Shown here in pieces: positions 5,910-19,326 of a DNA stretch of 64,000 bases. Both the position numbers and the translations under genes were made by a program. This stretch comes from Alphaproteobacteria bacterium. Lineage in GTDB: Bacteria; Pseudomonadota; Alphaproteobacteria; Rs-D84. How positions within the stretch are numbered: the first letter of the stretch is position 1; every line of letters starts with the position of its first letter. Location: contig JAFRSV010000014.1 of the NCBI GenBank assembly GCA_017427405.1, forward strand, positions 9,490 to 73,489, read 5' to 3'. Under the pieces are notes generated by a model, which worked only from the letters and a program-made list of their open reading frames with translations, was not told the origin of the DNA and searched no databases.

Positions 5910-6245
5910 TCATTCCGATAACGCACGATACAGCGCATCAGGCGTTTGTATAAACGGTGCGCGCATTTTAATTGCATCCTTGGCCATATTGACACAGGTC
6001 CAATTTTTTCGCGGGAAATTTCGTGGTAAATCACATGGCACATAAACAAAGCACCAACCATATTGCCGCAACATTTTCATATCACGTGCGCCCAGGCTAA
6101 TTTTTTCGACACGTCCATGCGATACAAATTGATAGAGTATAAATCCAGCGCGCCCACGCACGATAACCGCACAGTGCCGAAATTTTTTACAAAATATATT
6201 TGGTAAAATTTTTGAAGACTTTTGTGCAAACCCAATAATAACCAT
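5910..6245 (-). CDS. Hypothetical protein, 111 aa (possible small permuted papain/NlpC-P60-like hydrolase; weak)
   Basis: ATG preceded by AAGGA at about 8 nt. Follows the 114-aa gene by 17 nt. His-then-Cys arrangement (FRHCAVIV ... WTCVNMAKDAI). No family recognised with certainty. Confidence 0.5.
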   Translation of the reverse strand: MVIIGFAQKSSKILPNIFCKKFRHCAVIVRGRAGFILYQFVSHGRVEKISLGARDMKMLRQYGWCFVYVPCDLPRNFPRKNWTCVNMAKDAIKMRAPFIQTPDALYRALSE

Positions 6246-6262: not shown

Positions 6263-6607
6263 TTATTCAACCCAACCTTTGGCACGCGCGGCCGCATCAA
6301 TAACGCGCATCGCCGAATCCCATACGGCGGCGGCATGATTTTCGCGCCAAATATATTGATGTGGGGCGCGCCGGCGATCGCCGAATTCTTTGATGACCGC
6401 TAATTGTTCGTCATTTAATTTCCCCGACAAATAAAGTTTTGTAATCATTGTTTCAACATCAACCAATTCGCACACGCGTCGTGTTGCCGCGTTCCCACGA
6501 TATTGCCCAATATCATTACGCACAGATTTCGAATACAGAAACCAAAACCATATTTGTTCTGCACTTTGAAATTTTTCCGGTGTTATATTAACTTGTGAAT
6601 TATTCAT
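6263..6607 (-). CDS. Hypothetical protein, 114 aa
   Basis: Internal ATG (MNNSQVNIT) with a strong AAGGAGAAATTATA-ATG RBS, so the track ORF is trimmed from 6694 to 6607. No recognisable motif. Confidence 0.55.
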   Translation of the reverse strand: MNNSQVNITPEKFQSAEQIWFWFLYSKSVRNDIGQYRGNAATRRVCELVDVETMITKLYLSGKLNDEQLAVIKEFGDRRRAPHQYIWRENHAAAVWDSAMRVIDAAARAKGWVE

Positions 6608-6844
6608 TATAATTTCTCCTTTTTTTCTAATTCCTTTTAATATATAAAGACCCGATTGAGTTCGGTAAATAACTACAACCATAAATTGAAACAAAGTGTG
6701 AATTAGCGATTCGTTCAGTGGTTATAAATTTTTATCTGCGAATCGATAAACTCTTGGTTTTTTGATAAAAGGCGATGCATACGCATCGCCTCTCTCGCTT
6801 ATGGCATAATGAATTTTTTTGCTATGTCATGTTAAAATCCTTTG

Positions 6845-6890: not shown

Positions 6891-9317
6891 CTAAAACACA
6901 ATCGGTGGGAAACAATCACCACCCGTATTCGGACAACAATTAAACCCTTGGTCACCCATATCGGTATATGTTTCACCCGGACAGCATCCATTTGCATCCG
7001 GATTAGCACCACCATCACATGTGATAACAGATGTATTTTGTTGCGCCGGCGCGGCGGGCGTTTCTTTCTTGAACGGATTCTTTATAGTGCCATCCGCATT
7101 ATATTCAAGTCCAAGAACCTGGGTATTATATTCAACGGTATTCGCACCTGTGGTATAATCTGTTTTCTGCACACCCATTTGTTGCTGATTTTGGAACACC
7201 GCTTCTTGCCGTGCATTATTGATTGCGGTATATGTCCCAAATGAACGGCAATAGAAATCAATGGTGGCAAAACTATACTGATTACACAATGGCTGACCAG
7301 CTTTCCCAGGGTCCATTTTAGGCGTGCAAGACATATTATCGGCACAATCGCAACAATCTTTCTGAATAGAAGATTGCATCAACGAACGAACCTGGCCAAT
7401 AAGTTCTTCCATATCTGTACTTGGGGTTATTTGATTTGCGGCTGTTCTCCAATTCGCGCGGTTCTCGCCACCTGTACCATCCGCTGCCTTGGTTTGGTAT
7501 GGTCTTATTGCACACGCCTTACCCGGTTGATCGCCACACGTCACGAATAAATCAACCGGCGAAAATACGGTAATACGTGTCCCCGCGGCAATTGAAAAAG
7601 GCGGTGTTGTATTGTTCATAACATCGACCAACAATTTTGTCGCAACATTATTCCACGCGGTGATAATTTCATTTTTGGCAAGTTCCGACGAACGCACAGT
7701 TCCACTTTGAACAACGGTATTATTATCCAAATCAATCTGATTCACAAATGCATCGGACACCGGTGCAATCAAATTCACCGCCGCCGGCACAATAGCGGTC
7801 AGCATTGGCATAATAAATTGTTGCAAATAATCCGTACTGCCGTGTCCGGGGACACCCTTGCGTCCTTGGGAATCCGCCGAAAACGGACGTTGGTTATCTT
7901 TTGTAAAATTAAACTCAACCCCATCGGGACGAATAAATTGATACCATTCTATTTGCATACGACCAACGGCCTTGTATGGTCCCGGTAATTCACCCGTCAC
8001 ATACCCCAGCATCAATGTCCCCGTTGGAATAATCACTGTGCGACCGTTATCGGAATAAACATTCCTATCCACCGTTGCGCGCACCGGAAGACCATTTTTT
8101 AACATCTCTGCATCCGCTTGAACATCCGAAACAATTGTCGCCGGAATTGGTTTATATTGACGCAACACAAATGTCCTATCATACGGCATAGATGAAAATA
8201 CACCGTCACTTGCACCAGACCCAAGATACGTTTCTTCTTTGACCTTGTTCGGTGTCAACTCCAGTTTTTTCATTCCGCCCGTACCACTTGATTGCCGCTG
8301 TGCAACCAAGGCGTTCAGTTCCGCATCCGTCAATTGCCGTGCCCGATTCCCGCGATTCTTTACCGACCGCACGCCCAATGCGGGTAATTGGTCCGTAATG
8401 GTCAAACGAATATGTTCCGCATCCGACCCAATACGCCGCGCCGGATTATTTATATCCATAATATAACCCGTATCCGGATTATAAATTCCGGTCGGCGTTT
8501 TACAATTCACATCGGAAAACGGGTGATAGTAATACGCACCCCCGTCGGGCCTTATCCAACCCGCATGCACGCCAGATATATTGTATCCTGGAAAAGAAAA
8601 TTCCGAACAACCCGTCCCCGTCATAGAACCGGTGGGTGCCATGGCAACCGTTGGATCCGGCCAATCATATGTCGGCATTTGCGTATTATTAAAATCAAAT
8701 TCCGGCGAAATATCGTCCACATCTTTTTCAAAGTCATACGTTGGTTCCGGTTCAAAAATCGGGTCCGGTTCATATATTGGTTCGGGTTCCGGCGCAGGTT
8801 GTATCTTTAACGGTTCACGCGCACCAATAACAATAGTAATTGCGTTTGGTTCGTCACGTTCCACGCCCGTGGCAAAGTCCGTCCATTTAATTGCAACATC
8901 AACATTGGTAATGGTAATCGGATGTTCAGGTTCGTATTTCAACCGTATCTTGCACGGCATATCCGCATCGATAATAGTATTTTCATTTGTGCATGTTTCG
9001 GTTGCCGAAATCCCCGCGGCATCGGTCGTATCACCATCAACCACAACATTTACATCCGTCACCTGAACACGGGTATTTGCCGACACAGTATATTCAATTT
9101 CGCGCGATTCCCCAACATCCGTATCGACCCAGTCAATCGGTTCGTTTGGCGACACAATCAGTTCCGGCGTGACCGCCACCGGTGAATCAACGATTTCAAC
9201 CTTTTTTGTATCCTTGCCCCGCGTCAGCATCACGAACAACGCAACCACAACAATGATTGCCACAATAAGCAAGAACCATTGCAATCCACGTGACGAAGAA
9301 TCATTTTCCATACTCAT
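6891..9317 (-). CDS. virB10: VirB10/TrbI-family type IV secretion core protein, expanded (808 aa)
   Basis: N-terminal TM (WFLLIVAIIVVVALFVML) and a Pro-rich stretch (PAPEPEPIYEPDPIFEPEPTY). TrbI domain at about aa 380-594 (VRATVDRNVYSDNGRTVIIPTGTLMLGYV...RMQIEWYQFIRPDGVEF...AGTRITVFSPVDLFV). ATG at 9317 has AAGGGGAA upstream; the track start at 9323 is TTG. Confidence 0.85.
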   Translation of the reverse strand: MSMENDSSSRGLQWFLLIVAIIVVVALFVMLTRGKDTKKVEIVDSPVAVTPELIVSPNEPIDWVDTDVGESREIEYTVSANTRVQVTDVNVVVDGDTTDAAGISATETCTNENTIIDADMPCKIRLKYEPEHPITITNVDVAIKWTDFATGVERDEPNAITIVIGAREPLKIQPAPEPEPIYEPDPIFEPEPTYDFEKDVDDISPEFDFNNTQMPTYDWPDPTVAMAPTGSMTGTGCSEFSFPGYNISGVHAGWIRPDGGAYYYHPFSDVNCKTPTGIYNPDTGYIMDINNPARRIGSDAEHIRLTITDQLPALGVRSVKNRGNRARQLTDAELNALVAQRQSSGTGGMKKLELTPNKVKEETYLGSGASDGVFSSMPYDRTFVLRQYKPIPATIVSDVQADAEMLKNGLPVRATVDRNVYSDNGRTVIIPTGTLMLGYVTGELPGPYKAVGRMQIEWYQFIRPDGVEFNFTKDNQRPFSADSQGRKGVPGHGSTDYLQQFIMPMLTAIVPAAVNLIAPVSDAFVNQIDLDNNTVVQSGTVRSSELAKNEIITAWNNVATKLLVDVMNNTTPPFSIAAGTRITVFSPVDLFVTCGDQPGKACAIRPYQTKAADGTGGENRANWRTAANQITPSTDMEELIGQVRSLMQSSIQKDCCDCADNMSCTPKMDPGKAGQPLCNQYSFATIDFYCRSFGTYTAINNARQEAVFQNQQQMGVQKTDYTTGANTVEYNTQVLGLEYNADGTIKNPFKKETPAAPAQQNTSVITCDGGANPDANGCCPGETYTDMGDQGFNCCPNTGGDCFPPIVF

Positions 9318-9339
9318 TACCAATTCCCCTTAAAATACA

Positions 9340-10890
9340 TTACTGTATGCGAACCACCTGGCAACTGGCGCCACTGAACTTTAACAACTGGTCACACAAT
9401 TGTTGCGCGGTATCAATATCCGGCATTGGCCCAATACGCAACCGATACAAACGCGCCGCCGAAGATTTCGCCCCAAGTTCGCCAACGCCTTCTTCATCCA
9501 CGGCATAGAACACGCTGTCTTTATATTTATTCAATAAACCTTTGCCGTCATTACCACTGAACCGTGCAACCAATCCGGCCCAGTATTCATCCAACGCCTT
9601 GACACTGCTGTCGGAACGCAATTCAACGGCGACACCACCTTGGTTGCTGGTAATAAGTGGTATATTCGAATTCGGCAAATAAGACCCCGCGGTCACGCGT
9701 TCGGTTGGCATCATACTTATGCCACGTGTGCCATTGCCCAGGGCGGGCGCATCATATGTGCCATACATCATCGCCCCCGTATTCATCGGCATCGCCGGCA
9801 TGGTCGGCAACACCGCGGCATTTGGCACATTGCCAATATACGTCGGACTTGCGGTAAGGTTTTCGTACCCCGCGTTTATCGCGGTCATATTGTCGTTATA
9901 AATCATATTGTTCAGTGAATTTCCCGACATCATACTTTGTGCAACATTTGCCTCGGCCAACGCCATCACACTTGCGGTATCGGCAACCAAGAACGGTTTT
10001 GCGCGCTTTTTAATACAAACAATGCGTTGCCCACTGCGCAGAACCATATCGCCCACGGCCTCTACAATAAGCAAACGACCGTCTTGACCATCGGTGCGGA
10101 ACCCGACCGGCGATTCGCCGCCTTCGACCAACAACGACACCACGGGGCGTTGCGTCATTGAAATAACCTTGTCGCCAAAGTCAATATACGTAAACACACG
10201 GTCACGCCACACGCGTTCCGGCGCAATTACATAGTCGTCCGGATTCGGCACAAAAATATCCAAATCGAAACGGAATTCCGACGGGTCAATTTTCATCGTT
10301 TTAATCCAATCGTAATCTTCGCCATCGACACCGATGCTGGTGCTTTTTGTATTTGTGTTTTTAAATATGGAATTCATCGCCCCACCACTTGGTGCGGTTG
10401 CCGCGCCCGCCATGGGCAAACGGGCGCCCCCATCCAAAACAACATCAACCTGGGAATAGGTAATTTCGGACGCGTTCGACGGTTCACTGCGCAGATAGAA
10501 AGTATAAACATTTCCCGACTTTCCCGTCACAATCAAATTTGTATCCGACCCCATATTGTCCGGCGCGGGTGTAATGTAAAGCGTCCGCCCGCCTTGATTT
10601 CCATTAATTTGAAAGAACCCTTCGTTTCCGACAACCGCGTCTTCAATCTGTTCGCCCTTTGGCAAGTTCACCATCGTCACCATACCATTACGCAACTTTA
10701 CCGGCAACACGGTCCCCGGTTCCCACGCAAGTTGCGCGTATCCGGGTTTCAAACTGCCACTTGTCATATTTGCGTTTGGGTTATCCCACGCGGCCTGAAC
10801 ACCCCAGTTTCCGTCCAACGGCGCCGCCCACGCACCCGACACGACAACACCTGCGCAAATTGCAAATCTAAAAATCCAAAGTGCTTTCAT
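9340..10890 (-). CDS. virB9: VirB9/TrbG/CagX-family type IV secretion core protein with C-terminal SPOR-like domain
   Basis: Signal peptide (...SGAWA/AP). VirB9 N-domain (VKLRNGMVTMVNLPKGEQIEDAVVGNEGFFQI...TNLIVTGKSGNVYTFYL) and C-domain (APERVWRDRVFTYIDFGDK...VGFRTDGQDGRLLIVEAVGDMVLRSGQRIVCIKK). M/N/P-rich linker, then RLYRLRIGPMPDIDTAQQLCDQLLKFSGASCQVV. RBS AGGAAGGGA. Confidence 0.85.
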   Translation of the reverse strand: MKALWIFRFAICAGVVVSGAWAAPLDGNWGVQAAWDNPNANMTSGSLKPGYAQLAWEPGTVLPVKLRNGMVTMVNLPKGEQIEDAVVGNEGFFQINGNQGGRTLYITPAPDNMGSDTNLIVTGKSGNVYTFYLRSEPSNASEITYSQVDVVLDGGARLPMAGAATAPSGGAMNSIFKNTNTKSTSIGVDGEDYDWIKTMKIDPSEFRFDLDIFVPNPDDYVIAPERVWRDRVFTYIDFGDKVISMTQRPVVSLLVEGGESPVGFRTDGQDGRLLIVEAVGDMVLRSGQRIVCIKKRAKPFLVADTASVMALAEANVAQSMMSGNSLNNMIYNDNMTAINAGYENLTASPTYIGNVPNAAVLPTMPAMPMNTGAMMYGTYDAPALGNGTRGISMMPTERVTAGSYLPNSNIPLITSNQGGVAVELRSDSSVKALDEYWAGLVARFSGNDGKGLLNKYKDSVFYAVDEEGVGELGAKSSAARLYRLRIGPMPDIDTAQQLCDQLLKFSGASCQVVRIQ

Positions 10891-10915
10891 TTTTCCCTTC
10901 CTTTTCTTTGCGTAT

Positions 10916-11623
10916 TTATTTTGATATCCAATTCAACGGATCGTTCCCGTTCAACACCGTGTATTCCCTGACTTTCAATCCCAACGGATTATTAAGGCGT
11001 TCGATCCAATCAATAATCCTGTCGTTATCCTTGGCCAAAACAACACGAATCTTATAGTCCTTTTTATTTGTCGGCCCGCTGTTTGATTCACAATAATATC
11101 GTATCGTCACGGTATATGTGTCTTCCTTTAATACCAATGGCGCACCAATAAATGTGACGGGGCATGTAAACGCAAAATCCGGATAGTCACCAATAATTGC
11201 GTTATACATATCGGTCTGGGTGAATGCCTTGTAAACCGCGGGCGTGGACCACATTGCAACAACGCCACCATCATTACCCCACTTGCGCCGCATAATTGAA
11301 GTATTGCGTTCCACTTCGTTCCGGGCGCGGACATATTCCATGACGAACGCCTTTTTATATTCGTCCACGTTTTCATCACTTGCCGGCAATTCAGTAATTT
11401 GAATACTTGATGAATTTGCGGGCTTGGTCGTGATAAAGAAAATTTCGGGTCGATTTAATGGAAACATTTTCCCCAGTGTCATAAACAATACAAACACCAC
11501 CACCGCCATTCCGGCGAATACAAATACAACCAATCTGGACAACAAAACAGGCGGTTCTATGCGGTGTTGCAAGGTTCCTCTCCTAAACGTTTTTTTTGAT
11601 TGTAGAAAAAATCTTGCAACCAA
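10916..11623 (-). CDS. virB8: VirB8-family type IV secretion protein
   Basis: A single N-terminal TM, then a periplasmic domain with the VirB8-like layout (VDEYKKAFVMEYVRARNEV ... NPLGLKVREYTV). The start is uncertain: TTG at 11623, or TTG at 11572 preceded by AGGAGAGG. Confidence 0.8.
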   Translation of the reverse strand: MVARFFLQSKKTFRRGTLQHRIEPPVLLSRLVVFVFAGMAVVVFVLFMTLGKMFPLNRPEIFFITTKPANSSSIQITELPASDENVDEYKKAFVMEYVRARNEVERNTSIMRRKWGNDGGVVAMWSTPAVYKAFTQTDMYNAIIGDYPDFAFTCPVTFIGAPLVLKEDTYTVTIRYYCESNSGPTNKKDYKIRVVLAKDNDRIIDWIERLNNPLGLKVREYTVLNGNDPLNWISK

Positions 11624-11676
11624 TGCAAGTAAAAAAATAGTGGTCAGTGCAAGTGGAAAGTGTTGGTGTAGTCAGT

Positions 11677-11705
11677 TATATATATGTTACCAATTTTGAT
11701 GACAA
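11677..11705 (-). promoter_or_regulatory. Candidate sigma70 promoter for the virB8-10 operon
   Basis: Minus strand reads TTGTCA-N17-TATATA, about 55 nt upstream of the first possible virB8 start. Confidence 0.35.
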
Positions 11706-11923
11706 GATTATCGGAATAATACAACAATTTCCGGAACGTCGTCGCCCCAACTAACCACTTACACCATCATTTCATACTAACATAAATTTTTTTTCTAAAA
11801 AATGAAAAAAAGCACTTGACCCGATTCGGTGAAATTTAGTAGCCTGAATACAAGTAAAAAATATATTCGTGTGCAAACGCACAGGAGCCGGGCATTCCGG
11901 GGCGAAAGGAAGGGAACGAAAAC

Positions 11924-14900
11924 ATGAAGTTTTTAACGTCGAGAGTAGTTGTTTTTGCGTTGATGTCGTTTTTGGTGTCGTTTGTGGCGCATGCCGAAGA
12001 CAAGGTTGTTGGTGATGGTGGCAAGACGGGCGATACGGGGGAAGTCGTGAAATCGGGTTCGACGCCGGCAATAGATTACAAGGTTGTCACATCCAAGGCA
12101 TATGTTGATGATGAAATCTCTAAGCTTGCCGCACACAAGGTTAATGGTGTTGCGATATCAAATGAAAACATCCAATTTTATGCAGTAGAAACTGCCAGAA
12201 ACAGTGGGGCTTCTGCAACAAAAACAGTTCAACTTAGTGGCGGGGACATGGATTCTGATGCTACAACCATACCGACGGGAATGATGCTTGTTATTAAGCC
12301 GGCTGAGACATCAACTGTTGTGCCAACAACGTTAAAGCTGAAAAGGACTAGTTCCGATACTACGGGAATATCTAAATCGTTACGTTACAACGGTGCGGCA
12401 ATTACAACCGATATGGCGGGCAAAGTGTGGAATGCGAACACCCCATCTATTTGGGTGTATGATGGAACGTATTGGGATTTTGCCGGTGGTGGCACGGTTG
12501 CGGACGGCCTGATTGATGGCCTTGCGTCACATACCGTAAATGGCGCGCCACTATCGAATTTGGCGAGTGTGTTTTTTGGACCCGGGGAGGGTTCTGATGG
12601 CGCCGACAAAAAGGTAACGATCGATTCTATTGCTTCAACGGAGGGGGGGGTGCCACCGACGGGATTAATAATTGTGACTCAACCAACCGACTCGGATAGT
12701 CATGGTAATTTTGCTCTTACTTTAAACCGTTTTAACAAAGCACCTGTGTTTTATAACGGCGCGCCTGTCAACGACAGAGATGCATCCGCAATATGGAGTA
12801 TTAAAAAGCCGTCTTCGTTTGTGTTTGATGGCACAAATTGGGTGTTTTTAGGAACTGTTGATACTGATACCAACACCGAGTATAGCACCATGTCTGTTGA
12901 CGAAGGAACCGCTGGGCAATCGCAAACGCAACGAGTATTGACGGCACAAAACCTTAAACCGATAATCCAGGGCACAACATTGACAGGTCTTAGTACAAGT
13001 ACTGCTAGTGTAATAACTACATCCGACACGGTAACAACTGGTATGGGTAAGTTACAGGCTCAAATTACGGCTAATGATGTTAGGACACATACGGTAAACG
13101 GTGCACCGTTATCAAATACAGCAAGTTATTTTTATGGCACAGGTGTCGGTGTTCCCGATAATGCTGCCAAAACAGTAGAGATAGACTCTATTTATTCCGT
13201 AATCGGTCAAACAACACCGAATGGACAAATGATTGTTGTTCAACCAGAGAAAACGGCAACGAAAGGTAATATCACATTACAGTTAAACAAGTTCAATGCT
13301 GCGCCAGTGTATTATAACGGAGACGTCTTGAATGATGACGATGTGTCAAAAGTCTGGAATAAGGGGTATCCATCGACATTTGTGTTTGATGGAACGAATT
13401 GGGTTTTTATGGGTAACGGACAATTCGATACTGATACCAATACCGAGTATAGCACCATGTCTGTTAACGAAGGAACCGCTGGGCAATCGCAAACGCAACG
13501 AACATTGACGGCACAAAACCTTAAACCGATAATCCAGGGCACAACATTGACTGGTGTTGACACAACGGCGACAACGGCGGTAACGGCATCGGATACGGTC
13601 ACAACCGGCATCGGAAAACTTCAAGGACAGATAAATGATTTATCGTCACATAAAATAAACGGTATGCCGCTTTCGGGCTTTACATCGAATGGCGATGCGA
13701 TGACCAGTATGTATTTTTATGGGACATCGGATGCGGCGGCGGCCGACGAAGTAAGGAATGTGACCATTGGCGGCATAACCGAACTTGCACCGGGGTTGAT
13801 GATTATTGTGAAACCAACGATAACCGCCGCGTACGGAAATGCGGATGCGGCGGCGGCGGCCAAATTGAACCTGAACGGTCTTGGTGCCAAGGGTATGCGG
13901 TATAATGGTGCCGCACTTACCACCACCAATGATGGATATGCGTGGAAGGCGAATACCCCGGGTTTATGGTTGTATGATGGGACATATTGGAATTTTGCCG
14001 GTTATGACGCAAATAACACATATAACGCTATGACCGATGGTGCCAGTGGTTCGTATAGTGGCCCGGCTGGGACAGCCACCACAAACACGGTGGTCAGTCC
14101 AAAGGTTTTAAAGAACACCGTTCTTGACGGTATAACCCTTACCGCGAATACCGGTCGGACGGCATTTGATAGCACAATCGCGAACACCCCAATTACCGCA
14201 AGTGATAAGGTAATAGAGGCATTTGGTCATGCCCAAGGACAAATTAATAACAAACAGAACAAGATTGATGCAACATGGATAGAAGTTTCGACATTAGATA
14301 ATAGTGACATATGGCAACTGCGTGGGATTGCCGCATCAAATAACGCCGCGACTGATATTAACGCCACCGAAATTGGTCTTATGACAAATAATGATGTATA
14401 TGCGATATTGTCATATAATAACGAGGGGCACGGTTTGGTTGATGCAAATTATGATTTTTTCCAGAGTATCGGTCAAACCGGTCGCTATGAAGAATTGGAA
14501 AATCTTGTTCCAACTGTTGCCGCGGTTGGTGAAGCGTTTGGTGAACTTCGTGCTTTTTCGTGGGATTCCACAAAACACCCCGTGGCGATTGACGCATACA
14601 GCACGACGTTCAGTAACAGTGCAACGAACGCATGGCCGGTGATGAACGAAACCAAGGCCCCAAGTGGCAGTGTCCTTGCCAACGCATTGGCATTAAAGCA
14701 AAATAAAATTGCCGCCGGCACTGCGGGTAATGTTGTGACATATAGCGGTACCGCGGGGCAATTTGGTACACCGCTTAGTATAATGGATGGTCTTAGTTCC
14801 TATGGCGAAGTTGCGGTACTTGATAATGCATATAATTTTGGGGATCCAGAAACATCACAAACCACTGTTTGGCCATTGGCAGAGGCAACCCAATTAATAA

Positions 14901-17900
14901 ATGGTCGCGCCTTTGCTGACGGTTTATCTTTGAAGCAAACTGTGTTACCGGTTACCAGCAATGGAATGGGCAACGGACCAAACTATGTTTACAATGCAAC
15001 GACAAACCCGACAGCGGACGGATCCGTTGTCACCACAACAACGACCGCCGGCACCGTGGGTCAGCGCGGTATTGCGACGGCACCAACGTATGATGCAAAT
15101 GATAATTTAACCAATGGTTCGTGGTTACCGACGATGAGTGCGGTTGAAAGCATGGTATCTGGGTCCGATGTTTCATCGCACAAGGTCAATGGCGCACCAT
15201 TATCAAATACGGCATCGTACTTTTATGGCGAAGGTGTTGGTGCGGCGGACACGGCAACCAAGACGGTTAGCATACCGTCAATAACCGGCACGCCCGCGGT
15301 TGGCCAGGTTATTGTTGTCAAACCGGCAACAACGAATACATCGTCAACAATAAATATAAATTTAAACAATACGGCGGCATACAGTGTTTTGTATAGGGGC
15401 AGTTCTAGCAATATCCCAAAGGATGTTTGGACGGCATATGTTCCATCGATATTTGTTCTTGATGAAACCAGTGGTGGAACAAAATATTGGCGGTATGTCG
15501 GAACTTCGCCGTCGTCGATGGCATGGGGGGCGACCGAAACCAATGCAACAAACGCATATAGTACGACATTTGACGGCACAACAAACAATTGGCCGGTGGC
15601 GGATGAAAATAAATACGTCAAGGGTGATTCATTTGCCCAAGGTTTGGCATTAAAACAAAATAGAATCACAACTAATTTGGTGTCGTTTAATGATACGCCA
15701 AATGGTGCAACATATAATGTTCCGGCACTTGTATCATATGGAACGGGTACAAATAATGCTGATGGGATACTTGGCAACAAAATCGGTATAGTGGGTTATG
15801 GAAATATTGGCGAAGATCTTGCAGATTATGAAGAAGTTGGAATGGATAATTATGTTCCGACCGTTTACGCCGTGGCAGCGGCTTTATCCGCCATTTGGGA
15901 GGGTATGCCATCACAATGGCAGGCGCTTTCTTGGAATGTGAACGGTGACAATGGTGCCAATCGCACAAATGCAATCAATGCATATAATACAACATTTGGA
16001 ACCGGCACAAACAATTGGGCGGGAACCAACACAAATTTGATAAATGGGCAATTTTTGGCAAATTCCCTTGCGCTGAAACAAAATAAAATCCCGGCGGGAA
16101 CAACCCCCGAAAATTTATACACGAACGGCAGTGTATTAACATATACCAATTCTGATGGGGTCGTTGGTGAAAAACATATTATAAATGGTCAAATGTTTGA
16201 GGATCTTGTTGGAGGTCGTGAAAACTGGACGAATGATTATCAAAATATGCTTGTAAATGCCGGTGATATCGGAACAATGTTGAAAAGGCTTGATTGGTCC
16301 AGTACCCAAAGCGCCGCAATCAATGCATATAACACAACATTTGGAACCGGTACAAATAATTGGACGGGAAATGACGGTAATTTAATAAACGGTCAATTTT
16401 TGGCAAATTCCCTTGCCCTGAAACAAAATAAAATTCCTGCCGGCACTGCGGGGGAAATCTTGACGTATAGTGGCACCGCGGGACAGCTTGGAACGCCATG
16501 GGCGGTTTTGTCTAGTTTGACTGGTGAGGATGGAGATGCAATAGAAAACTATAGCACAACGTTTAATGGCACAGATGGCAATTGGACAACAGGTTCCGCG
16601 GGTAAATTGATTACTACGAATGTCTTGGCGGATGGGTTAGCATTGAAACAAACAAGAATCTCAACCGGATTGGTGGAGTTTGAAGGAAATGAAGGTAATT
16701 ATCAATTGCCCGCAATCGTTAGAACGGATGCCTTGGGGGACTTATTAGATGGAACAAGTCTTGGTATATTTAATTTTGCAACATATCAGGCAGAAGATGC
16801 GTATCAAGCTTTAGCCGGGTATGCCGAAGGTGCTACCGCAGCCCAACTTGATAATTTCGTACCTACACTTCGTGTGGTGGCAGAAGAACTTAAAGCGATT
16901 GAAAGTAAACAAAACAAACTCCCAGCTGCATATGCAAGTACAACAGATCCCAGTAAAATGGCATCAATGGGTGGGGAAACGATTGCTTTGGGATCGTACG
17001 CGGGGAGCGTGAGTCAGCGTTATATCACCGCGGGTGGGTCACAACCACTTACCCAAAAAACTGGGGCAGATAATGTGATGTTATATATCAATGGAACAAA
17101 AACATTAGCCCAATTCCAAACATCGAACTTTGGTGCGACCGGCGGGACAGCAACCACCATTCAGGGGAGAATCAAAGAATCGTTGGTTAATTTGGAAACA
17201 TTGAAAGATGTGTATAGTGAATTACAAGAAAGTATTGAAAGTTCCGATGTTTCATCGCACAAGGTCAATGGCGCACCATTATCAAATACGGCATCATACT
17301 TTTACGGCGAAGGTGTTGGGGAGGCGGACACGTCAACCAAAACGGTCAGCATCCCATCAATAACCGGCACCCCCGCCGTTGGCCAGGTTATTATTGTCAA
17401 ACCGGCGACAACGAATACCGCATCAACGATAAAGATAAATTTAAACAATACGGCGGCATACAGTGTTTTATACAGGGGCAGCACAACCAATATCCCATCA
17501 GAGGCATGGACGGCATATGTTCCGTCGATATTTGTCCTTGATGAAACCAGTGGTGGAACAAAATATTGGCGGTATGTCGGAACTTCGCCGTCGTCGATGG
17601 CATGGGGGGCGACCGAAACCAATGCAACAAACGCATATAGTACGACATTTGACGGCACAACAAACAATTGGCCAACGGCGGATGAAAATAAATACGTCAA
17701 GGCTGATTCACTTGCGTATGGTTTGGCGTTAAAACAAAACGCTTTGCCGGCCCAGGCATCGGGTGCCCCGGTCACAATTCCGACATACCCGGCATATGGT
17801 ACATCTGATGGGGTGATTGGTAAAATGTATCTTGATACATCATCGCTTTATACGGCAAATGATGAACATTTCCCATCATCAAAATTGATTCGTACAACAC

Positions 17901-19279
17901 TTTCATCGTATGTGCCAAAGTCGTATGTACTTAATACCAATGATACAAATTCTTATTTGGCCGATGATAACAGCGCGCCATCATGGGCAACAACAAACGG
18001 CGTGGCAAGTTTATATCGTGTTCCGGGCGCGGCAAGTGGTTCAAATTGGGCCGCCACGGCCATGTCAAAGTGGGCCAATGATGAAAATGTTCCAACAATG
18101 GATACTTTGGCAAATTCACTTGCGGGACTTTATGATGCGGTTGGTGTTTCGGTTGAAGATCGAATTCTGAACTACGATGAAACCGGTTATAGTATTGTGG
18201 GTGAAAGTGTTCCCGTTCCGTCCCAGATTGAATATACCGGTGAATTAAAACTTAAAGATGGTAATCAATTGTTCTGGCTGCCACAATTGCAAAATGCGGG
18301 TGTGGAAGAAGCAACGAGATTACTGAAATCTTATTCGATGGACAAAATCGTCCCCAGTATGGATGAATTGGCATTTGCGTTGGATGGTGTTTTACAAACA
18401 CATGAAACCACCAGAGAATGGCAAGAAGTCGTGAATTTTTACAGGGTTCCATCAAGCTCTCTCTTTGAAGTTGCAAAGGAAATAGAGGCCTCTGAAGTTA
18501 ATGCAGTAGCGCTTTACAAAAGTGGTTATTTGCAAACCTTTGCCCCAAGTTTAGAGGCATTGATGAACGAATCCGCCGAGCTTGTACGACTTATAAACAG
18601 CAAACAAAACAAATTATCCGGTACCAGTGGCAACCTTATCACGTATGGCGCAACCGCGGGCACAACCGGGTCCAAGGAAATTGCAACCACCATAACAAAC
18701 AATGCCAACACGGTGCCAAATACACAGGCAGTTTACAATGCCGTAAATGCACGACAAAATGTAATACCGGTCGCTGGTAAATATCGTTCGTCAAACACGG
18801 CAACAAGTGACACACCCATATCTGATTGGACCGTCACAGATATCAAGGGGACCGCACTGGTGACCAAACCAACATCTTCGGATGGTGTTGTTGGCGAACG
18901 CAAGATTTTCGAGGCGGGTGACACATACACAGACGATACTAAAACAAATATACAAATTGCAACAATTGGTGCGGTTATGGAAAACACGTTTACAAAAACA
19001 TGTGTTGAATACGCCCCTGGGTCAACACAAAATGACACCACATGTTGGCTGTGGCAACTTACAAGCAACACCGTCACGTCAACGAGATGTAGCGCGAGTG
19101 GTGTAAGTTGCCGTTCAAGTACCGAATGTTGCAGTGGAATCTGTAGATCAGAGGTTTGTGCCGCCACACTTATCGCTTGCGGGGGCGAAGGATCATCATG
19201 TTCACTGATTGCTTGCTGCGATGGGTTGACCTGTGACAGCAGTAGCAATACATGTGTTAGAGAGGCTGGCCGTACATGA
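11924..19279 (+). CDS. Giant secreted repeat protein (2451 aa), tail-fibre-like modules, Cys-rich C-terminal cap
   Basis: Uninterrupted 7.36-kb ORF with RBS GGAAGGGA and signal peptide MKFLTSRVVVFALMSFLVSFVAHA/ED. Recurrent SHK/TVNGAPLSN, VPT-x3-V-x3-L and LALKQNK motifs. All Cys that I could see fall in the last ~95 aa. Confidence 0.85.
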   Translation: MKFLTSRVVVFALMSFLVSFVAHAEDKVVGDGGKTGDTGEVVKSGSTPAIDYKVVTSKAYVDDEISKLAAHKVNGVAISNENIQFYAVETARNSGASATKTVQLSGGDMDSDATTIPTGMMLVIKPAETSTVVPTTLKLKRTSSDTTGISKSLRYNGAAITTDMAGKVWNANTPSIWVYDGTYWDFAGGGTVADGLIDGLASHTVNGAPLSNLASVFFGPGEGSDGADKKVTIDSIASTEGGVPPTGLIIVTQPTDSDSHGNFALTLNRFNKAPVFYNGAPVNDRDASAIWSIKKPSSFVFDGTNWVFLGTVDTDTNTEYSTMSVDEGTAGQSQTQRVLTAQNLKPIIQGTTLTGLSTSTASVITTSDTVTTGMGKLQAQITANDVRTHTVNGAPLSNTASYFYGTGVGVPDNAAKTVEIDSIYSVIGQTTPNGQMIVVQPEKTATKGNITLQLNKFNAAPVYYNGDVLNDDDVSKVWNKGYPSTFVFDGTNWVFMGNGQFDTDTNTEYSTMSVNEGTAGQSQTQRTLTAQNLKPIIQGTTLTGVDTTATTAVTASDTVTTGIGKLQGQINDLSSHKINGMPLSGFTSNGDAMTSMYFYGTSDAAAADEVRNVTIGGITELAPGLMIIVKPTITAAYGNADAAAAAKLNLNGLGAKGMRYNGAALTTTNDGYAWKANTPGLWLYDGTYWNFAGYDANNTYNAMTDGASGSYSGPAGTATTNTVVSPKVLKNTVLDGITLTANTGRTAFDSTIANTPITASDKVIEAFGHAQGQINNKQNKIDATWIEVSTLDNSDIWQLRGIAASNNAATDINATEIGLMTNNDVYAILSYNNEGHGLVDANYDFFQSIGQTGRYEELENLVPTVAAVGEAFGELRAFSWDSTKHPVAIDAYSTTFSNSATNAWPVMNETKAPSGSVLANALALKQNKIAAGTAGNVVTYSGTAGQFGTPLSIMDGLSSYGEVAVLDNAYNFGDPETSQTTVWPLAEATQLINGRAFADGLSLKQTVLPVTSNGMGNGPNYVYNATTNPTADGSVVTTTTTAGTVGQRGIATAPTYDANDNLTNGSWLPTMSAVESMVSGSDVSSHKVNGAPLSNTASYFYGEGVGAADTATKTVSIPSITGTPAVGQVIVVKPATTNTSSTININLNNTAAYSVLYRGSSSNIPKDVWTAYVPSIFVLDETSGGTKYWRYVGTSPSSMAWGATETNATNAYSTTFDGTTNNWPVADENKYVKGDSFAQGLALKQNRITTNLVSFNDTPNGATYNVPALVSYGTGTNNADGILGNKIGIVGYGNIGEDLADYEEVGMDNYVPTVYAVAAALSAIWEGMPSQWQALSWNVNGDNGANRTNAINAYNTTFGTGTNNWAGTNTNLINGQFLANSLALKQNKIPAGTTPENLYTNGSVLTYTNSDGVVGEKHIINGQMFEDLVGGRENWTNDYQNMLVNAGDIGTMLKRLDWSSTQSAAINAYNTTFGTGTNNWTGNDGNLINGQFLANSLALKQNKIPAGTAGEILTYSGTAGQLGTPWAVLSSLTGEDGDAIENYSTTFNGTDGNWTTGSAGKLITTNVLADGLALKQTRISTGLVEFEGNEGNYQLPAIVRTDALGDLLDGTSLGIFNFATYQAEDAYQALAGYAEGATAAQLDNFVPTLRVVAEELKAIESKQNKLPAAYASTTDPSKMASMGGETIALGSYAGSVSQRYITAGGSQPLTQKTGADNVMLYINGTKTLAQFQTSNFGATGGTATTIQGRIKESLVNLETLKDVYSELQESIESSDVSSHKVNGAPLSNTASYFYGEGVGEADTSTKTVSIPSITGTPAVGQVIIVKPATTNTASTIKINLNNTAAYSVLYRGSTTNIPSEAWTAYVPSIFVLDETSGGTKYWRYVGTSPSSMAWGATETNATNAYSTTFDGTTNNWPTADENKYVKADSLAYGLALKQNALPAQASGAPVTIPTYPAYGTSDGVIGKMYLDTSSLYTANDEHFPSSKLIRTTLSSYVPKSYVLNTNDTNSYLADDNSAPSWATTNGVASLYRVPGAASGSNWAATAMSKWANDENVPTMDTLANSLAGLYDAVGVSVEDRILNYDETGYSIVGESVPVPSQIEYTGELKLKDGNQLFWLPQLQNAGVEEATRLLKSYSMDKIVPSMDELAFALDGVLQTHETTREWQEVVNFYRVPSSSLFEVAKEIEASEVNAVALYKSGYLQTFAPSLEALMNESAELVRLINSKQNKLSGTSGNLITYGATAGTTGSKEIATTITNNANTVPNTQAVYNAVNARQNVIPVAGKYRSSNTATSDTPISDWTVTDIKGTALVTKPTSSDGVVGERKIFEAGDTYTDDTKTNIQIATIGAVMENTFTKTCVEYAPGSTQNDTTCWLWQLTSNTVTSTRCSASGVSCRSSTECCSGICRSEVCAATLIACGGEGSSCSLIACCDGLTCDSSSNTCVREAGRT

Positions 19280-19296
19280 TTATAATCTTGCACTGT

Positions 19297-19326
19297 GAAA
19301 TTCCGCCTTTTGGCGGAATTTTATTT
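19297..19326 (+). terminator. Intrinsic terminator after the giant gene
   Basis: gaaattccgcc-tttt-ggcggaatttt followed by a T-rich tail, 18 nt after the stop. Confidence 0.7.

What the first reader, a model, noticed from the sequence alone, without database searches (positions are those of the whole stretch)
11924..19279. 2451-aa secreted fibre-like repeat protein divergently transcribed from the virB operon
This is a single 7.36-kb ORF with a classical signal peptide. It is built from recurring modules. Module starts marked by (S)H(K/T)VNG(A)PLSN occur at about aa 71, 203, 389, 576, 1086 and 1779. At least seven copies of a (N/D)xVPTxxxVxxxL motif are present (VPTVAAVGEAFGEL, VPTVYAVAAALSAI, VPTLRVVAEELKAI, VPTMDTLANSLAGL, VPSMDELAFALDGV ...). 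LA(L)KQN(K/R)I punctuation and an N-terminal KAYVDDEISKL also occur. These motifs resemble phage tail-fibre and host-recognition proteins more than autotransporters or RTX proteins. I saw no beta-barrel translocator, LPXTG, T1SS GG-repeat or Por-type C-terminal signal. How such a protein would cross or attach to the outer membrane is unexplained. The only secretion-related genes nearby are virB8-10, 300 bp away on the other strand.
Basis: partly seen in the sequence, partly recalled or inferred. Interest (0 to 1): 0.72.

Follow-up and report, generated by a model that had tools for sequence, protein, structure and literature searches.

The report
Giant tail-fibre-like secreted protein, knottin-tipped
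A tiny-genome gut bacterium that probably lives off other cells spends about 7.4 kb on one exported, fibre-like protein built partly from bacteriophage tail-fibre parts and ending in two spider-toxin-like "knottin" mini-domains, most likely a grappling fibre for attaching to its partner cell.

Summary
The ORF (11924-19279, 2451 aa), its signal peptide and its repeats are real. It is the largest known member of an unannotated family confined to gut and rumen Alphaproteobacteria of the Candidatus Enterousia / Rs-D84 lineage, which has genomes under 1 Mb and is predicted to depend on a partner.

Family hallmarks:
- a Sec signal peptide
- an N-terminal TVTSKAYVD motif
- a variable modular shaft
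- a two-cysteine beta-hairpin "cap" (C..C-W-L-W), followed by nothing or by swappable tips

Here the shaft holds six copies of a ~115-aa beta-sandwich. That domain is 54% identical to a segment of a metagenomic phage tail fibre and is fold-matched to many caudoviral tail-fibre proteins. The tip is two tandem inhibitor-cystine-knot (knottin) units.

The tail-fibre reading is supported. The virB link is unresolved. A family member lies beside virB8 in 14 of 16 informative relatives, in two orientations and from 188 to 2451 aa. The slot is empty in two relatives. Terminator-like hairpins follow the gene in the four loci scanned, and most paralogues lie elsewhere.

Most likely function: a trimeric surface adhesin fibre, analogous but not homologous to Bdellovibrio MAT fibres. 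The route across the outer membrane remains unknown.

The parts
11924..19279 (+). Whole gene: 2451-aa secreted modular fibre protein, identical to NCBI MAG protein IJL21_03990
   Evidence: ORF list and translation. 100% match to P0001.
11624..11923 (.). 300-bp divergent intergenic region shared with virB8. It holds one weak sigma-70-like site.
   Evidence: The promoter count is no higher than in shuffles.
11924..11995 (+). Type I (Sec) signal peptide, aa 1-24, with an AHA|ED cleavage site
   Evidence: Read from the sequence. The same kind of leader occurs across the family.
12080..12127 (+). Family N-terminal motif KVVTSKAYVDDEISKL (aa 53-68). It resembles the SQKAVKAYVD start of small phage fibre proteins.
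   Evidence: The motif is present in 148 of 194 collected family proteins.
12131..12493 (+). Module A copy 1 (aa 70-190): phage-type beta-sandwich
   Evidence: HMM i-E 4.5e-50.
12527..12859 (+). Module A copy 2 (aa 202-312)
   Evidence: 43% identical to phage P0007.
12863..13084 (+). Module C copy 1 (aa 314-387): TDTNTEYSTMSV..LTAQNLKPIIQGT..GKLQ linker
13085..13423 (+). Module A copy 3 (aa 388-500), the copy that was modelled
   Evidence: core pLDDT above 90. (BFVD tail-fibre matches, best E 7.6e-10). 54% identical to P0007.
13430..13645 (+). Module C copy 2 (aa 503-574)
13646..14002 (+). Module A copy 4 (aa 575-693)
14003..14257 (+). Module C copy 3, divergent (aa 694-778)
14258..15175 (+). 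Family-specific shaft modules (aa 779-1084): YSTTF..LALKQNKI units, VPT motifs and a TTNPTADGSVVTTTT..LPTMSAV unit
15176..15508 (+). Module A copy 5 (aa 1085-1195)
   Evidence: Part of a recent duplication with copy 6 (86% aa identity; 300 nt at 89%).
15509..17254 (+). Family-specific shaft modules (aa 1196-1777)
   Evidence: An exhaustive phmmer search found only 120 representative proteins. 93 of the 116 new ones carry the family's C..CWLW cap.
17255..17587 (+). Module A copy 6 (aa 1778-1888)
17588..18988 (+). Distal shaft (aa 1889-2355). It includes the conserved pre-cap region ...IKGTALVTK..GVVGERKIFE..NIQIATIGAV.
   Evidence: Alignment A2. 56-62% identical to the slot orthologues.
18989..19066 (+). 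Family cap: TKTCVEYAPGSTQNDTTCWLWQLTSN (aa 2356-2381), a predicted beta-hairpin with two invariant Cys
   Evidence: Alignment A3. AF2 strands 131-138 and 149-156, pLDDT 87-92. Present in 169 of 194 family proteins.
19088..19159 (+). Knottin-like unit 1 (aa 2389-2412): C-x6-C-x5-CC-x3-C-x4-C
19178..19255 (+). Knottin-like unit 2 (aa 2419-2444): C-x6-C-x4-CC-x4-C-x6-C
   Evidence: purotoxin-6. (profile hits to ICK toxins). (purotoxin-6: TM 0.83, rmsd 0.8 A).
19295..19324 (+). Terminator-like hairpin (13-bp stem followed by a T-rich tail), 16 nt after the stop codon
19485..19558 (+). tRNA-Trp, the downstream border of the slot, followed by nusG-rplKAJL-rpoBC
6891..11623 (-). virB8 (10916-11623), virB9 with a weak C-terminal SPOR match (9340-10890) and an 810-aa virB10 (6891-9323). 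These are neighbours, not shown to be part of the system.
   Evidence: Pfam hits to VirB8, CagX, TrbI and SPOR.

Best explanation
The gene encodes the largest known member of an unannotated family of exported fibre proteins. The family is specific to the Candidatus Enterousia / Rs-D84 lineage of gut and rumen Alphaproteobacteria.

Proposed mechanism:
1. The Sec system carries the unfolded chain across the inner membrane and signal peptidase I removes aa 1-24. Shown only as sequence features.
2. In the periplasm the chain folds from its C-terminus. The two-Cys beta-hairpin cap (aa 2356-2381) and the two knottins use all 14 cysteines in disulfides. The cap is proposed to nucleate a parallel trimer, as the fibritin foldon does. 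This step is inferred.
3. The fibre ends up on the cell surface. The conserved N-terminus (TVTSKAYVD) lies near the cell and the variable C-terminus points outward. This polarity is inferred from which end is conserved and which varies.
4. Six phage-type beta-sandwich domains along the shaft and the double-knottin tip bind surface structures of the partner or host cell on which this metabolically dependent bacterium lives. This step is inferred.

Long direct repeats let the shaft expand and contract, and tips are swapped between paralogues. This gives fast variation of a host-contact protein. The route across the outer membrane is not identified.
For: Family and lineage:
- Only 6 full-length-type relatives were found among 5.8 billion clusters.
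- 16 genome loci were recovered, all rumen or gut MAGs labelled Enterousia, Alphaproteobacteria or proteobacterium.
- A further 72 proteins came from the C-terminal profile search and 116 from the exhaustive phmmer search.
- Of 194 collected proteins, 169 carry the cap and 148 carry the N-terminal motif. Lengths run from 86 to 2451 aa with a median of 282.
- No Pfam or NCBIfam model matches any member tested.

Phage tail-fibre modules:
- Module A plus C is 54% identical to aa 703-872 of P0007. P0007 lies on a phage-like contig, and its other parts match annotated tail fibre or minor tail proteins in 127 GenBank phages.
- 28 stand-alone A+C proteins were found, and the two contigs examined are phage-like. 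Four IMG/VR viral contigs also carry the module.
- The AF2 core has pLDDT above 90. Foldseek against BFVD gave 55 hits at E<=1e-3 (best 7.6e-10), the named ones mostly tail fibre, minor tail or receptor-binding proteins.

Polarity and tip swapping. After the cap, family members carry one of:
- 0-5 residues (95 proteins)
- a 6-25-residue tail, typically the 14-residue ..LSGTYMPQNQ tail (54 proteins)
- knottins or other Cys-rich units (16 proteins)
- in L067 and L069, a 165-190-aa globular domain, with the cap in mid-protein
.

Knottins:
- The profile of 14 units hits only ICK toxins: Xt3a double-ICK at 4.2e-8 with both domains matched, cyriotoxin-1a at 1.5e-5 and asteropsin G at 6.8e-5.
- The AF2 tip has pLDDT 83-95 and superposes on purotoxin-6 at TM 0.83 and 0.8 A.

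Fast modular evolution: slot orthologues whose VirB8 is 98% identical are 839 and 959 aa long and share only 56-62% identity over the C-terminal ~500 aa. DNA direct repeats are present.

Lifestyle: Enterousia genomes are 0.75-1.0 Mb, lack biosynthesis and respiration, and are judged obligate symbionts or parasites (PMC12306168).

Precedent: Bdellovibrio MAT fibres are signal-peptide-bearing, phage-like trimers with variable tips that sit on the predator surface (PMC10769870).
Against: - No experiment or proteomic data places the protein on the surface.
- Trimerisation is untested. Only monomer AF2 was available, and the shaft modelled poorly (mean pLDDT 66).
- Module A has no significant solved-structure match, so its binding function is assumed from context.
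- The cap profile did not hit foldon or any other PDB sequence.
- No anchor and no outer-membrane route was identified.
- The partner organism is unknown.
- Knottin E-values rest on cysteine-rich short motifs with high compositional bias.
Confidence: 0.58

Rival explanations
1. The fibre is a component or cargo of the type IV secretion system. It either docks by its N-terminus on the VirB7/9/10 outer-membrane core, acting like a VirB5-type targeting adhesin, or it is a Sec-dependent periplasmic substrate pushed out by the T4SS as pertussis toxin is by Ptl. This is compatible with the adhesin reading but adds a specific link.
For: A family member lies next to virB8 in 14 of 16 informative loci:
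- Large and divergent: window, L001, L003, L009, L010, L012, L062, L063.
- Small (188-347 aa), directly upstream and co-directional: L015, L020, L060/61, L071, L067/68, L069.

Adjacency survives an orientation flip. In L069 it also survives a change of the other flank, which is a serine-recombinase-like ORF (read from the translation) instead of nusG. The family is Sec-dependent and disulfide-rich, like the one known two-step T4SS substrate (established knowledge of Bordetella Ptl). Rickettsiales-type T4SSs lack VirB5 (own knowledge).
Against: - L066 and L070 keep nusG and virB8 about 560 bp apart with no fibre gene between them.
- A terminator-like hairpin follows the fibre gene in the window, L015 and L060, with a weaker one in L020.
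- Most paralogues lie elsewhere with no virB gene within the 8-10 kb flanks examined.
- Gene order is collinear across these reduced genomes, so adjacency may be inherited synteny.
- The slot abuts tRNA-Trp, a plausible recombination hot spot.
- There is no similarity to VirB2, VirB5 or VirB7.
Confidence: 0.2
2. The gene is a remnant or domesticated prophage, tailocin or gene-transfer-agent tail-fibre gene that integrated beside tRNA-Trp and still serves a phage-like particle.
For: Modules A and C are shared with phage tail fibres. The gene abuts tRNA-Trp, and the paralogue in L019 abuts tRNA-Arg.
Against: - A Sec signal peptide is incompatible with cytoplasmic virion assembly.
- No other phage gene lies in the 64-kb window. 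The flanks are yidC/virB and nusG/rpoBC.
- GC content matches the flanks.
- The same slot is occupied in many species.
- The bulk of the shaft (B/D/F modules) is family-specific and was not found in phages.
- Only 18 of 194 family members carry module A at all.
Confidence: 0.04
3. The protein is mainly a toxin carrier. The double knottin is an ion-channel or receptor-blocking toxin aimed at a eukaryotic host cell (a rumen protist or gut epithelium) and released from the fibre.
For: The sequence and fold matches are to neurotoxic ICK peptides, including the bivalent toxins Xt3a and DkTx. Other family members carry different Cys-rich C-terminal units.
Against: - The ICK fold is a generic stable binding scaffold, and similarity is limited to the cysteine framework and a few glycines.
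- No processing site or protease is evident.
- 95 of the 169 cap-bearing family members have no tip at all.
- A 2350-residue shaft is unnecessary for toxin delivery.
Confidence: 0.07
4. The protein belongs to a known adhesin class with a defined secretion route encoded elsewhere, such as a trimeric autotransporter, a two-partner-secretion exoprotein, an RTX/T1SS adhesin or a T9SS cargo.
For: It is large, repetitive, Thr/Ala/Gly/Ser/Asn-rich and carries a signal peptide.
Against: - Pfam at E<=1 gives no YadA anchor, autotransporter barrel, TPS, haemagglutination, RTX, Big or cadherin domain, and no T9SS C-terminal domain.
- NCBIfam gives nothing.
- A PDB sequence search returns only knottins.
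- The C-terminus is a knottin pair, not a barrel.
Confidence: 0.05

Closest known systems
Bdellovibrio bacteriovorus MAT (mosaic adhesive trimer) fibres (Caulton et al. 2024, PMC10769870)
   Same: Chromosomally encoded and multi-paralogue. They have a Sec signal peptide, a phage-tail-fibre-like modular shaft and swappable C-terminal tips. They are used by a bacterium that must attach to other cells, and their surface anchor is likewise unknown.
   Different: - No detectable sequence similarity. A whole-protein PDB search, which covers the solved MAT fragments, found none.
- MATs share a conserved ~130-aa N-terminal domain, and many end in an S74 chaperone-protease.
- This family instead has a ~10-residue N-terminal motif, a two-Cys hairpin cap and knottin or Cys-rich tips.
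- The host lineage is a genome-reduced alphaproteobacterium, not a predator with a large genome.
Caudoviral tail fibres, especially the uncultured gut-phage fibre P0007 and the small A+C fibre proteins P0008-P0033
   Same: They share the module A beta-sandwich and the module C linker at 40-54% identity. They share the (T/S)xK/QKAxKxYVD start motif and recurring VPTxxAV motifs.
   Different: - The phage proteins have no signal peptide and lie among baseplate, lysis or recombination genes.
- The window protein is exported, stands alone among housekeeping genes, and about 70% of its length is family-specific modules not seen in phages.
T4 fibritin foldon (C-terminal beta-hairpin trimerisation unit)
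   Same: A roughly 25-residue terminal beta-hairpin with an aromatic/hydrophobic W-L-W core sits at the end of a fibre shaft. The comparison with the foldon sequence is from memory.
   Different: A profile search of the PDB found no sequence similarity. Here the hairpin is stapled by two invariant cysteines and can be followed by further domains. Trimerisation is untested.
Inhibitor cystine knot (knottin) peptides, including the double-knot toxins Xt3a and DkTx
   Same: The same C-C-CC-C-C framework and spacing, and a tandem arrangement. Profile E-values reach 4e-8, and the predicted fold superposes at 0.8 A on purotoxin-6.
   Different: Those are small secreted animal or sponge peptides. Here the units are fused to the end of a 2350-residue bacterial fibre. 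Disulfide connectivity and any channel activity are unknown.
Trimeric autotransporter adhesins (YadA, BadA)
   Same: Long modular surface fibres with repeated head- and stalk-like modules and a Sec leader.
   Different: There is no C-terminal YadA-type membrane anchor and no Hep_Hag or HIM repeats. In TAAs the C-terminus is the conserved anchor. Here the C-terminus is the variable end.
Bordetella Ptl T4SS exporting Sec-dependent pertussis toxin
   Same: The only well-established case of a T4SS exporting a periplasmically folded, disulfide-bonded protein. It is relevant as a possible route because of the virB8-10 adjacency (own knowledge).
   Different: No evidence here beyond gene neighbourhood. 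Only virB8, virB9 and virB10 are visible in the window.

Membership tests
Enterousia/Rs-D84 fibre family (unannotated; defined here) | Type I signal peptide followed within ~5-35 residues by the (K)TV(T/A)SKxYVD motif | tested here: met
   aa 1-24 and aa 53-62. The motif is in 148 of 194 family proteins.
Enterousia/Rs-D84 fibre family (unannotated; defined here) | Two-Cys cap K-x-C-x-(G/E)-(Y/W)...(D/E)-x-x-C-(W/L)-L-W at the end of the shaft | tested here: met
   aa 2358-2377, KTCVEYAPGSTQNDTTCWLW. Present in 169 of 194 proteins.
Enterousia/Rs-D84 fibre family (unannotated; defined here) | Restricted to gut/rumen alphaproteobacterial MAGs of this lineage | tested here: met
   All 16 genome loci come from RUG or RGIG rumen MAGs or Candidatus Enterousia MAGs. 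The named proteins are 'Alphaproteobacteria bacterium'.
Phage tail fibre (virion component) | Homology of modules to bona fide tail-fibre proteins | tested here: met
   54% identity to P0007. BFVD fold matches at E down to 7.6e-10.
Phage tail fibre (virion component) | Encoded within a phage or prophage structural gene cluster and assembled in the cytoplasm (no signal peptide) | tested here: not met
   The flanks are virB8-10/yidC and tRNA-Trp/nusG/rpoBC, with no phage genes in the window. A Sec leader is present.
Bdellovibrio MAT superfamily | Conserved ~130-aa beta-rich N-terminal domain after the signal peptide | tested here: inconclusive
   Small family members of 180-190 aa have no room for such a domain. 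In the window protein the first module A follows 45 residues after cleavage. No MAT N-domain sequence was available for direct comparison.
Bdellovibrio MAT superfamily | Sequence similarity to MAT shaft or tip structures, or an S74 chaperone-protease | tested here: not met
   The PDB phmmer search returned only knottins. There is no Peptidase_S74 hit in Pfam.
Bdellovibrio MAT superfamily | Intertwined trimeric beta-prism fibre | not testable with these tools
   Only monomer AF2 was available, and the shaft pLDDT was low.
Inhibitor cystine knot (knottin) | Six Cys in a C-C-CC-C-C framework with typical loop lengths | tested here: met
   Two units in the window, and the six Cys are invariant across the 14 aligned family units.
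Inhibitor cystine knot (knottin) | Sequence-profile and fold similarity to solved knottins | tested here: met
   hmmsearch: 8 ICK toxins at E<1e-3, best 4.2e-8. Foldseek: purotoxin-6 with target-normalised TM 0.83, rmsd 0.8 A, probability 0.99, although E=0.4 because the match is short. Pfam Conotoxin, Toxin_12 and Dickkopf_N hits are below their cut-offs.
Inhibitor cystine knot (knottin) | I-IV, II-V, III-VI disulfide connectivity with a threaded knot | not testable with these tools
This needs mass spectrometry or NMR.
Trimeric autotransporter adhesin | C-terminal YadA-like beta-barrel anchor | tested here: not met
   No Pfam hit at E<=1. The C-terminus is a knottin pair.
RTX / T1SS adhesin | GGxGxD nonapeptide repeats and an uncleaved C-terminal T1SS signal, with no Sec leader | tested here: not met
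   No HemolysinCabind hit. A Sec leader is present.
T4SS structural or pilus proteins (VirB2, VirB5, VirB7) | Similarity to the corresponding Pfam families | tested here: not met
   No hit for the window protein or for the small virB8-adjacent paralogue P0040.
T4SS-linked gene (operon membership) | Invariable adjacency to, and co-transcription with, virB8-10 | tested here: inconclusive
   Adjacent in 14 of 16 loci and absent in L066 and L070. Terminator-like hairpins separate it from its neighbours.

The most novel reading that the evidence does not exclude
The fibre family is the targeting device of the Enterousia type IV secretion system. Trimeric fibres derived from phage tail fibres dock by their conserved N-terminus on the surface-exposed VirB9/VirB10 core, or are exported through it. 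Their swappable tips, here a double knottin, select the partner cell into which the T4SS then delivers or from which it extracts material. This would be a 'tail-fibre-guided T4SS', convergent with phage and contractile-injection-system targeting.
Probability: 0.12. Interest if true: 0.88.

Novelty: new variant of a known kind. Interest (0 to 1): 0.62.

Why it matters
Candidatus Enterousia / Rs-D84 bacteria are common in ruminant, horse, chicken and human guts. Their genomes are under 1 Mb, and they are thought to live as obligate symbionts or parasites of unknown partners (PMC12306168).

- **Scale of investment.** A 7.4-kb gene is about 0.8% of such a genome. A large paralogous family of fibres with swappable tips is the most obvious candidate for the partner-recognition apparatus.
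- **Experimental handles.** Tip domains can be expressed and used as probes to identify the partner cell.
- **A second example of a recent finding.** Besides Bdellovibrio, this would be an independent case of a cell-dependent bacterium re-using phage receptor-binding architecture.
- **An unusual domain fusion.** It places tandem knottin domains, which to my knowledge are described almost only from animals, plants and fungi, at the tip of a bacterial fibre.
- **An open question made testable.** Its recurrent position beside virB8-10 turns "what guides Rickettsiales-like T4SSs that lack VirB5?" into a testable question.

Tried and rejected
- **Curated family libraries.** Pfam, PHROGs and NCBIfam on the whole protein gave nothing usable.
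- **PDB sequence search with module A.** The best hits, LCI peptide and a CBM, had E above 0.3 and were rejected as chance.
- **Foldseek of module A against the PDB.** No significant hit. The top three were phage proteins but with TM about 0.2, so they are not used as evidence.
- **Foldon hypothesis for the cap.** A profile search of the PDB found no foldon-containing chain. It is kept only as a structural analogy.
- **Paralogy with the second giant ORF (35963-40300).** BLASTP found no similarity.
- **GenBank phages with module A.** tblastn gave no match. The module is known only from metagenomic phages.
- **Viral-contig scan with alignment A1.** It was repeated with P0021.
- **C-terminal globular tips of L067 and L069.** Neither has a Pfam hit, and the L069 tip has no PDB sequence hit. 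The resemblance of their '..EEGSTATAYEPY' ending to phage receptor-binding domains is from memory only.
- **Cap as a C-terminal secretion or sorting signal.** Rejected because it can lie mid-protein, ahead of 34-190 further residues.
- **Recent horizontal transfer of the gene.** Rejected because GC content matches the flanks and the slot is occupied across species.


Full report
**1. Observation**

The window contains one ATG-started ORF at 11924-19279 (+) encoding 2451 aa. It is identical to the NCBI MAG protein IJL21_03990 from 'Alphaproteobacteria bacterium'.

- The N-terminus MKFLTSRVVVFALMSFLVSFVAHA|EDK has the n-, h- and c-regions of a type I signal peptide. This was read from the sequence.
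- The repetition is not a compositional artefact. Self-BLAST pairs reach E=1e-76.
- The VPT-type motif occurs 7 times, against 0.58 expected in shuffles.
- The DNA carries direct repeats of 300 nt at 89% identity and 139 nt at 94%.
- Pfam, PHROGs and NCBIfam recognise nothing.
- All 14 cysteines lie in the last 92 residues.

**2. Genomic setting**

The gene sits in an ordinary chromosomal region:
- upstream, on the plus strand: recR, ksgA, a Na+/H+ exchanger gene, lspA and yidC
- on the minus strand: two small ORFs, then virB10 (810 aa), virB9 (516 aa, with a weak C-terminal SPOR match) and virB8
- a 300-bp gap
- the fibre gene
- a 13-bp-stem terminator-like hairpin at 19295-19324
- tRNA-Trp, then nusG-rplKAJL-rpoBC

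. GC content does not differ from the flanks. No phage gene is present in the 64 kb, and no second family member is present.

**3. Organism**

The C-terminal profile retrieved 16 loci from species-representative genomes. All are rumen or gut MAGs, and two are named Candidatus Enterousia. Flanking proteins are 83-100% identical in the close relatives and 59-87% in the more distant ones.

Enterousia belongs to order Rs-D84. Its genomes are 0.75-1.0 Mb and lack amino-acid, nucleotide and lipid biosynthesis, the TCA cycle and respiration. The lineage is judged to be an obligate symbiont or parasite that obtains metabolites from other cells (PMC12306168).

**4. Architecture**

Three kinds of sequence make up the protein.

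(a) Module A is about 115 aa and occurs six times, starting at aa 70, 202, 388, 575, 1085 and 1778. Three of the copies are followed by module C, about 70 aa (TDTNTEYSTMSV...LTAQNLKPIIQGT...GKLQ).

(b) Family-specific shaft modules fill aa 779-1084, 1196-1777 and 1889-2355. They include YSTTF...LALKQNKI units, NxVPTxxAV motifs and others.

(c) The C-terminal end consists of:
- a conserved stretch IKGTALVTK..GVVGERKIFE..NIQIATIGAV
- the cap KTCVEYAPGSTQNDTTCWLW
- two units with the spacing C-x6-C-x4/5-CC-x3/4-C-x4/6-C

.

**5. Modules A and C come from the phage tail-fibre world**

- aa 391-568 are 54% identical to aa 703-872 of P0007.
- P0007 is a 1406-aa protein on a 40-kb phage-like contig that also carries lysozyme, NrdD, a nuclease and a run of large structural genes.
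- Other parts of P0007 match annotated tail fibre or minor tail proteins in 127 GenBank phages.
- A profile of 27 A(+C) units found 28 small stand-alone proteins. The two contigs examined are phage-like. One carries baseplate J, wedge, sheath-initiator, holin, lysozyme, integrase and RecT genes. The other carries GH108 lysin, ERF and Gp157 genes.
- These small proteins begin with ...SD.TVASQKAVKAYVD. That is the same motif that follows the signal peptide in the bacterial family.
- Four IMG/VR viral contigs also carry module A.
- AlphaFold2 gives a confident beta-sandwich, with pLDDT above 90 over about 90 residues.
- Foldseek finds nothing significant in the PDB. In the BFVD viral library it finds 55 matches at E<=1e-3, best 7.6e-10. 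Core superpositions are 2-3.6 A over about 100 residues, and the named hits are mostly tail fibre, minor tail, hyaluronidase tail fibre or receptor-binding proteins.

**6. The rest of the shaft is family-specific**

An exhaustive phmmer search of aa 1196-1777 against 1.84 billion representatives gave only 120 hits. Of the 116 new ones, 93 carry the C..CWLW cap. Only 18 of 194 collected family proteins carry module A. The phage-type domains are thus an addition to a lineage-specific fibre scaffold, not its basis.

**7. The family**

I collected 194 proteins of 86-2451 aa, median 282, many of them metagenomic fragments. The cap is present in 169, the N-terminal (K)TV(T/A)SKxYVD motif in 148, and both in 128. 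No member matches a curated family. Individual genomes hold several paralogues. For example, RUG774 has at least four loci. The window protein is the longest member seen.

**8. Polarity and the cap**

What follows the cap varies:
- 0-5 residues in 95 proteins
- a 6-25-residue tail in 54, typically the 14-residue tail NVNxLSGTYMPxNQ
- 26-100 residues in 20; in all, 16 proteins have at least four Cys after the cap (knottins or other Cys-rich units)

. In L067 and L069 the cap lies mid-protein and is followed by a 165-190-aa globular domain.

So the cap is not a C-terminal sorting signal. It is a junction that closes the shaft and precedes swappable tips. With the N-terminus conserved and the C-terminus variable, the N-terminus is inferred to be cell-proximal and the C-terminus distal, as in phage fibres and MAT proteins.

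AF2 predicts the cap as a beta-hairpin with pLDDT 87-92, and the two invariant Cys lie on opposite strands. I propose a disulfide-stapled trimerisation nucleus like the fibritin foldon. This is an analogy only. A PDB profile search did not hit foldon, and oligomerisation could not be tested.

**9. The tip is a double knottin**

- A profile of 14 units from the family hits only inhibitor-cystine-knot peptides in the PDB. These include Xt3a (itself a double ICK, both domains matched, E=4.2e-8), cyriotoxin-1a (1.5e-5), asteropsin G (6.8e-5), hainantoxins, purotoxin-6 and omega-conotoxins. Eight hits are below 1e-3.
- The AF2 tip has pLDDT 83-95.
- All the top Foldseek hits against the PDB are knottins. 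Purotoxin-6 gives target-normalised TM 0.83, 0.8 A over 29 residues and probability 0.99. The E-values of 0.4-1 reflect only the short length.
- Caveats: cysteine-rich profiles inflate scores, the Pfam toxin families score below their cut-offs, and disulfide connectivity is untested.
- The cap (2 Cys) and the two knottins (6 + 6) account for all 14 cysteines. This fits oxidative folding after Sec export.

**10. The virB question**

I examined every relative in which the virB8 flank is visible.

- Eight loci have a large, divergently oriented gene of 839-2451 aa: the window, L001, L003, L009, L010, L012, L062 and L063.
- Six loci have a small paralogue of 188-347 aa directly upstream of virB8 on the same strand: L015, L020, L060/61, L071, L067/68 and L069. 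In L069 the other neighbour is an ORF that looks like a serine recombinase (read from its translation) rather than nusG.
- Two loci, L066 and L070, have nusG and virB8 only about 560 bp apart with no fibre gene.
- Two loci, L064 and L065, are too short to judge.

.

Adjacency is therefore frequent, and it survives changes of orientation, size and tip. This is more than simple inherited gene order would require. Four points count against a link:
- Adjacency is not universal.
- In the co-directional loci a GC-rich terminator-like hairpin lies between the fibre gene and virB8. It is identical in L015 and L060 and weaker in L020. The window gene has its own hairpin.
- Most paralogues lie elsewhere.
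- The slot borders tRNA-Trp, a plausible recombination hot spot.

I rate a specific T4SS role at about 0.2.

**11. Evolutionary dynamics**

Relatives whose VirB8 is 98% identical carry slot genes of 839 and 959 aa, against 2451 aa here. Only the C-terminal ~500 residues align well, at 56-62% identity, while the flanking proteins are 87-100% identical. Together with the long direct repeats, this shows rapid expansion and contraction and diversification. That is typical of exposed host-contact or antigenic proteins.

**12. Mechanism proposed**

The proposed sequence is Sec export, then periplasmic oxidative folding and cap-nucleated trimerisation. The fibre is then displayed on the surface, N-terminus proximal. 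The A domains and the knottin tip bind the partner cell's surface. Variation arises by module duplication and tip exchange.

- Shown: the sequence features, module homologies, predicted folds, family distribution and synteny.
- Inferred: trimerisation, surface location, polarity and adhesin function.
- Unknown: the outer-membrane route and the anchor.

**13. Comparison with known systems**

The closest functional analogue is the Bdellovibrio MAT superfamily (PMC10769870). The two share the overall logic but no detectable homology, and their conserved elements differ. The protein fails the tests for trimeric autotransporter, RTX adhesin, virion tail fibre and T4SS pilus proteins. I classify it as a new variant of a known kind: a bacterial surface fibre assembled from phage receptor-binding architecture. 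Its distinctive additions are the Cys-hairpin cap, the knottin tips and the recurrent position beside a T4SS core operon.

**14. Verdict**

- The tail-fibre interpretation is supported.
- The virB link is unresolved.
- Interest is moderately high (0.62). The family is a concrete, testable candidate for how an abundant but uncultured, partner-dependent gut lineage recognises its partner. A bacterial double knottin on a fibre tip is unexpected.

Noticed in passing
window 35963-40300 (+): A second giant secreted protein of 1445 aa. It has a signal peptide, a long Ala/Thr/Arg-rich low-complexity N-terminal region and a cysteine-rich remainder. It has no Pfam hit and no similarity to the fibre. The local GC content rises to 0.53.
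   Followed up: partly
window 40492-42324 (+): A 610-aa ORF directly downstream of the 1445-aa protein, with no Pfam family. It may belong with that gene.
   Followed up: no
window 9340-10890 (-) and 6891-9323 (-): VirB9 (CagX domain) carries a weak C-terminal match to the SPOR peptidoglycan-binding domain (E=1.7e-4, 22.3 bits). VirB10 is unusually long at 810 aa, with its TrbI domain only at residues 387-587. Both look like atypical T4SS core proteins.
   Followed up: no
window 5910-6245 (-) and 6263-6694 (-): Two small ORFs of 111 and 143 aa lie downstream of virB10. They have no Pfam family but are conserved at 58-97% identity, in the same position, in all relatives. They could be unrecognised T4SS accessory genes.
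   Followed up: partly
window 47377-48909 (+): A 510-aa protein matches Pfam 'Protochlamydia outer membrane protein' (Pom, E=1.5e-11). This porin family is known from an amoeba endosymbiont.
   Followed up: no
L015 10623-10642 and L060 8578-8597: An identical GC-rich terminator-like hairpin (ATCCCGGCGAATGCCGGGAT followed by a T-rich tract) lies between the small fibre paralogue and virB8 in two different assemblies. A second inverted hairpin lies about 30 bp further on, on the other strand.
   Followed up: partly
L069 109-786 (-): In one metagenomic relative the ORF next to the fibre-virB8 pair begins ..IAYIRVSSNKQ.. and looks like a serine recombinase/resolvase (judged from the translation only, no domain search). 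It takes the place of tRNA-Trp/nusG, which hints at rearrangement or mobility of this region.
   Followed up: no
L019 9066-9142 and 9596-10597; L015 9191-9264; L020 9107-9180: Several small family members lie directly beside tRNA genes: tRNA-Arg in L019 and tRNA-Trp in L015 and L020. The tRNA genes may act as insertion or recombination hot spots for the family.
   Followed up: partly
P0110, P0131, P0163, P0208 (hits): Four relatives of the shaft modules lack the CWLW cap. They end instead in a shared motif ...EYLAVPVTTSGTG.P.ANN.P.G.AAIWIE, which suggests an alternative C-terminal cap or tip.
   Followed up: no
window 34228-35808 (-) and 44220-46208 (-): A phospholipase-D-family protein and an M13 (neprilysin-like) metallopeptidase are encoded in the same window. 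Both are possible host-interaction enzymes in a reduced genome.
   Followed up: no
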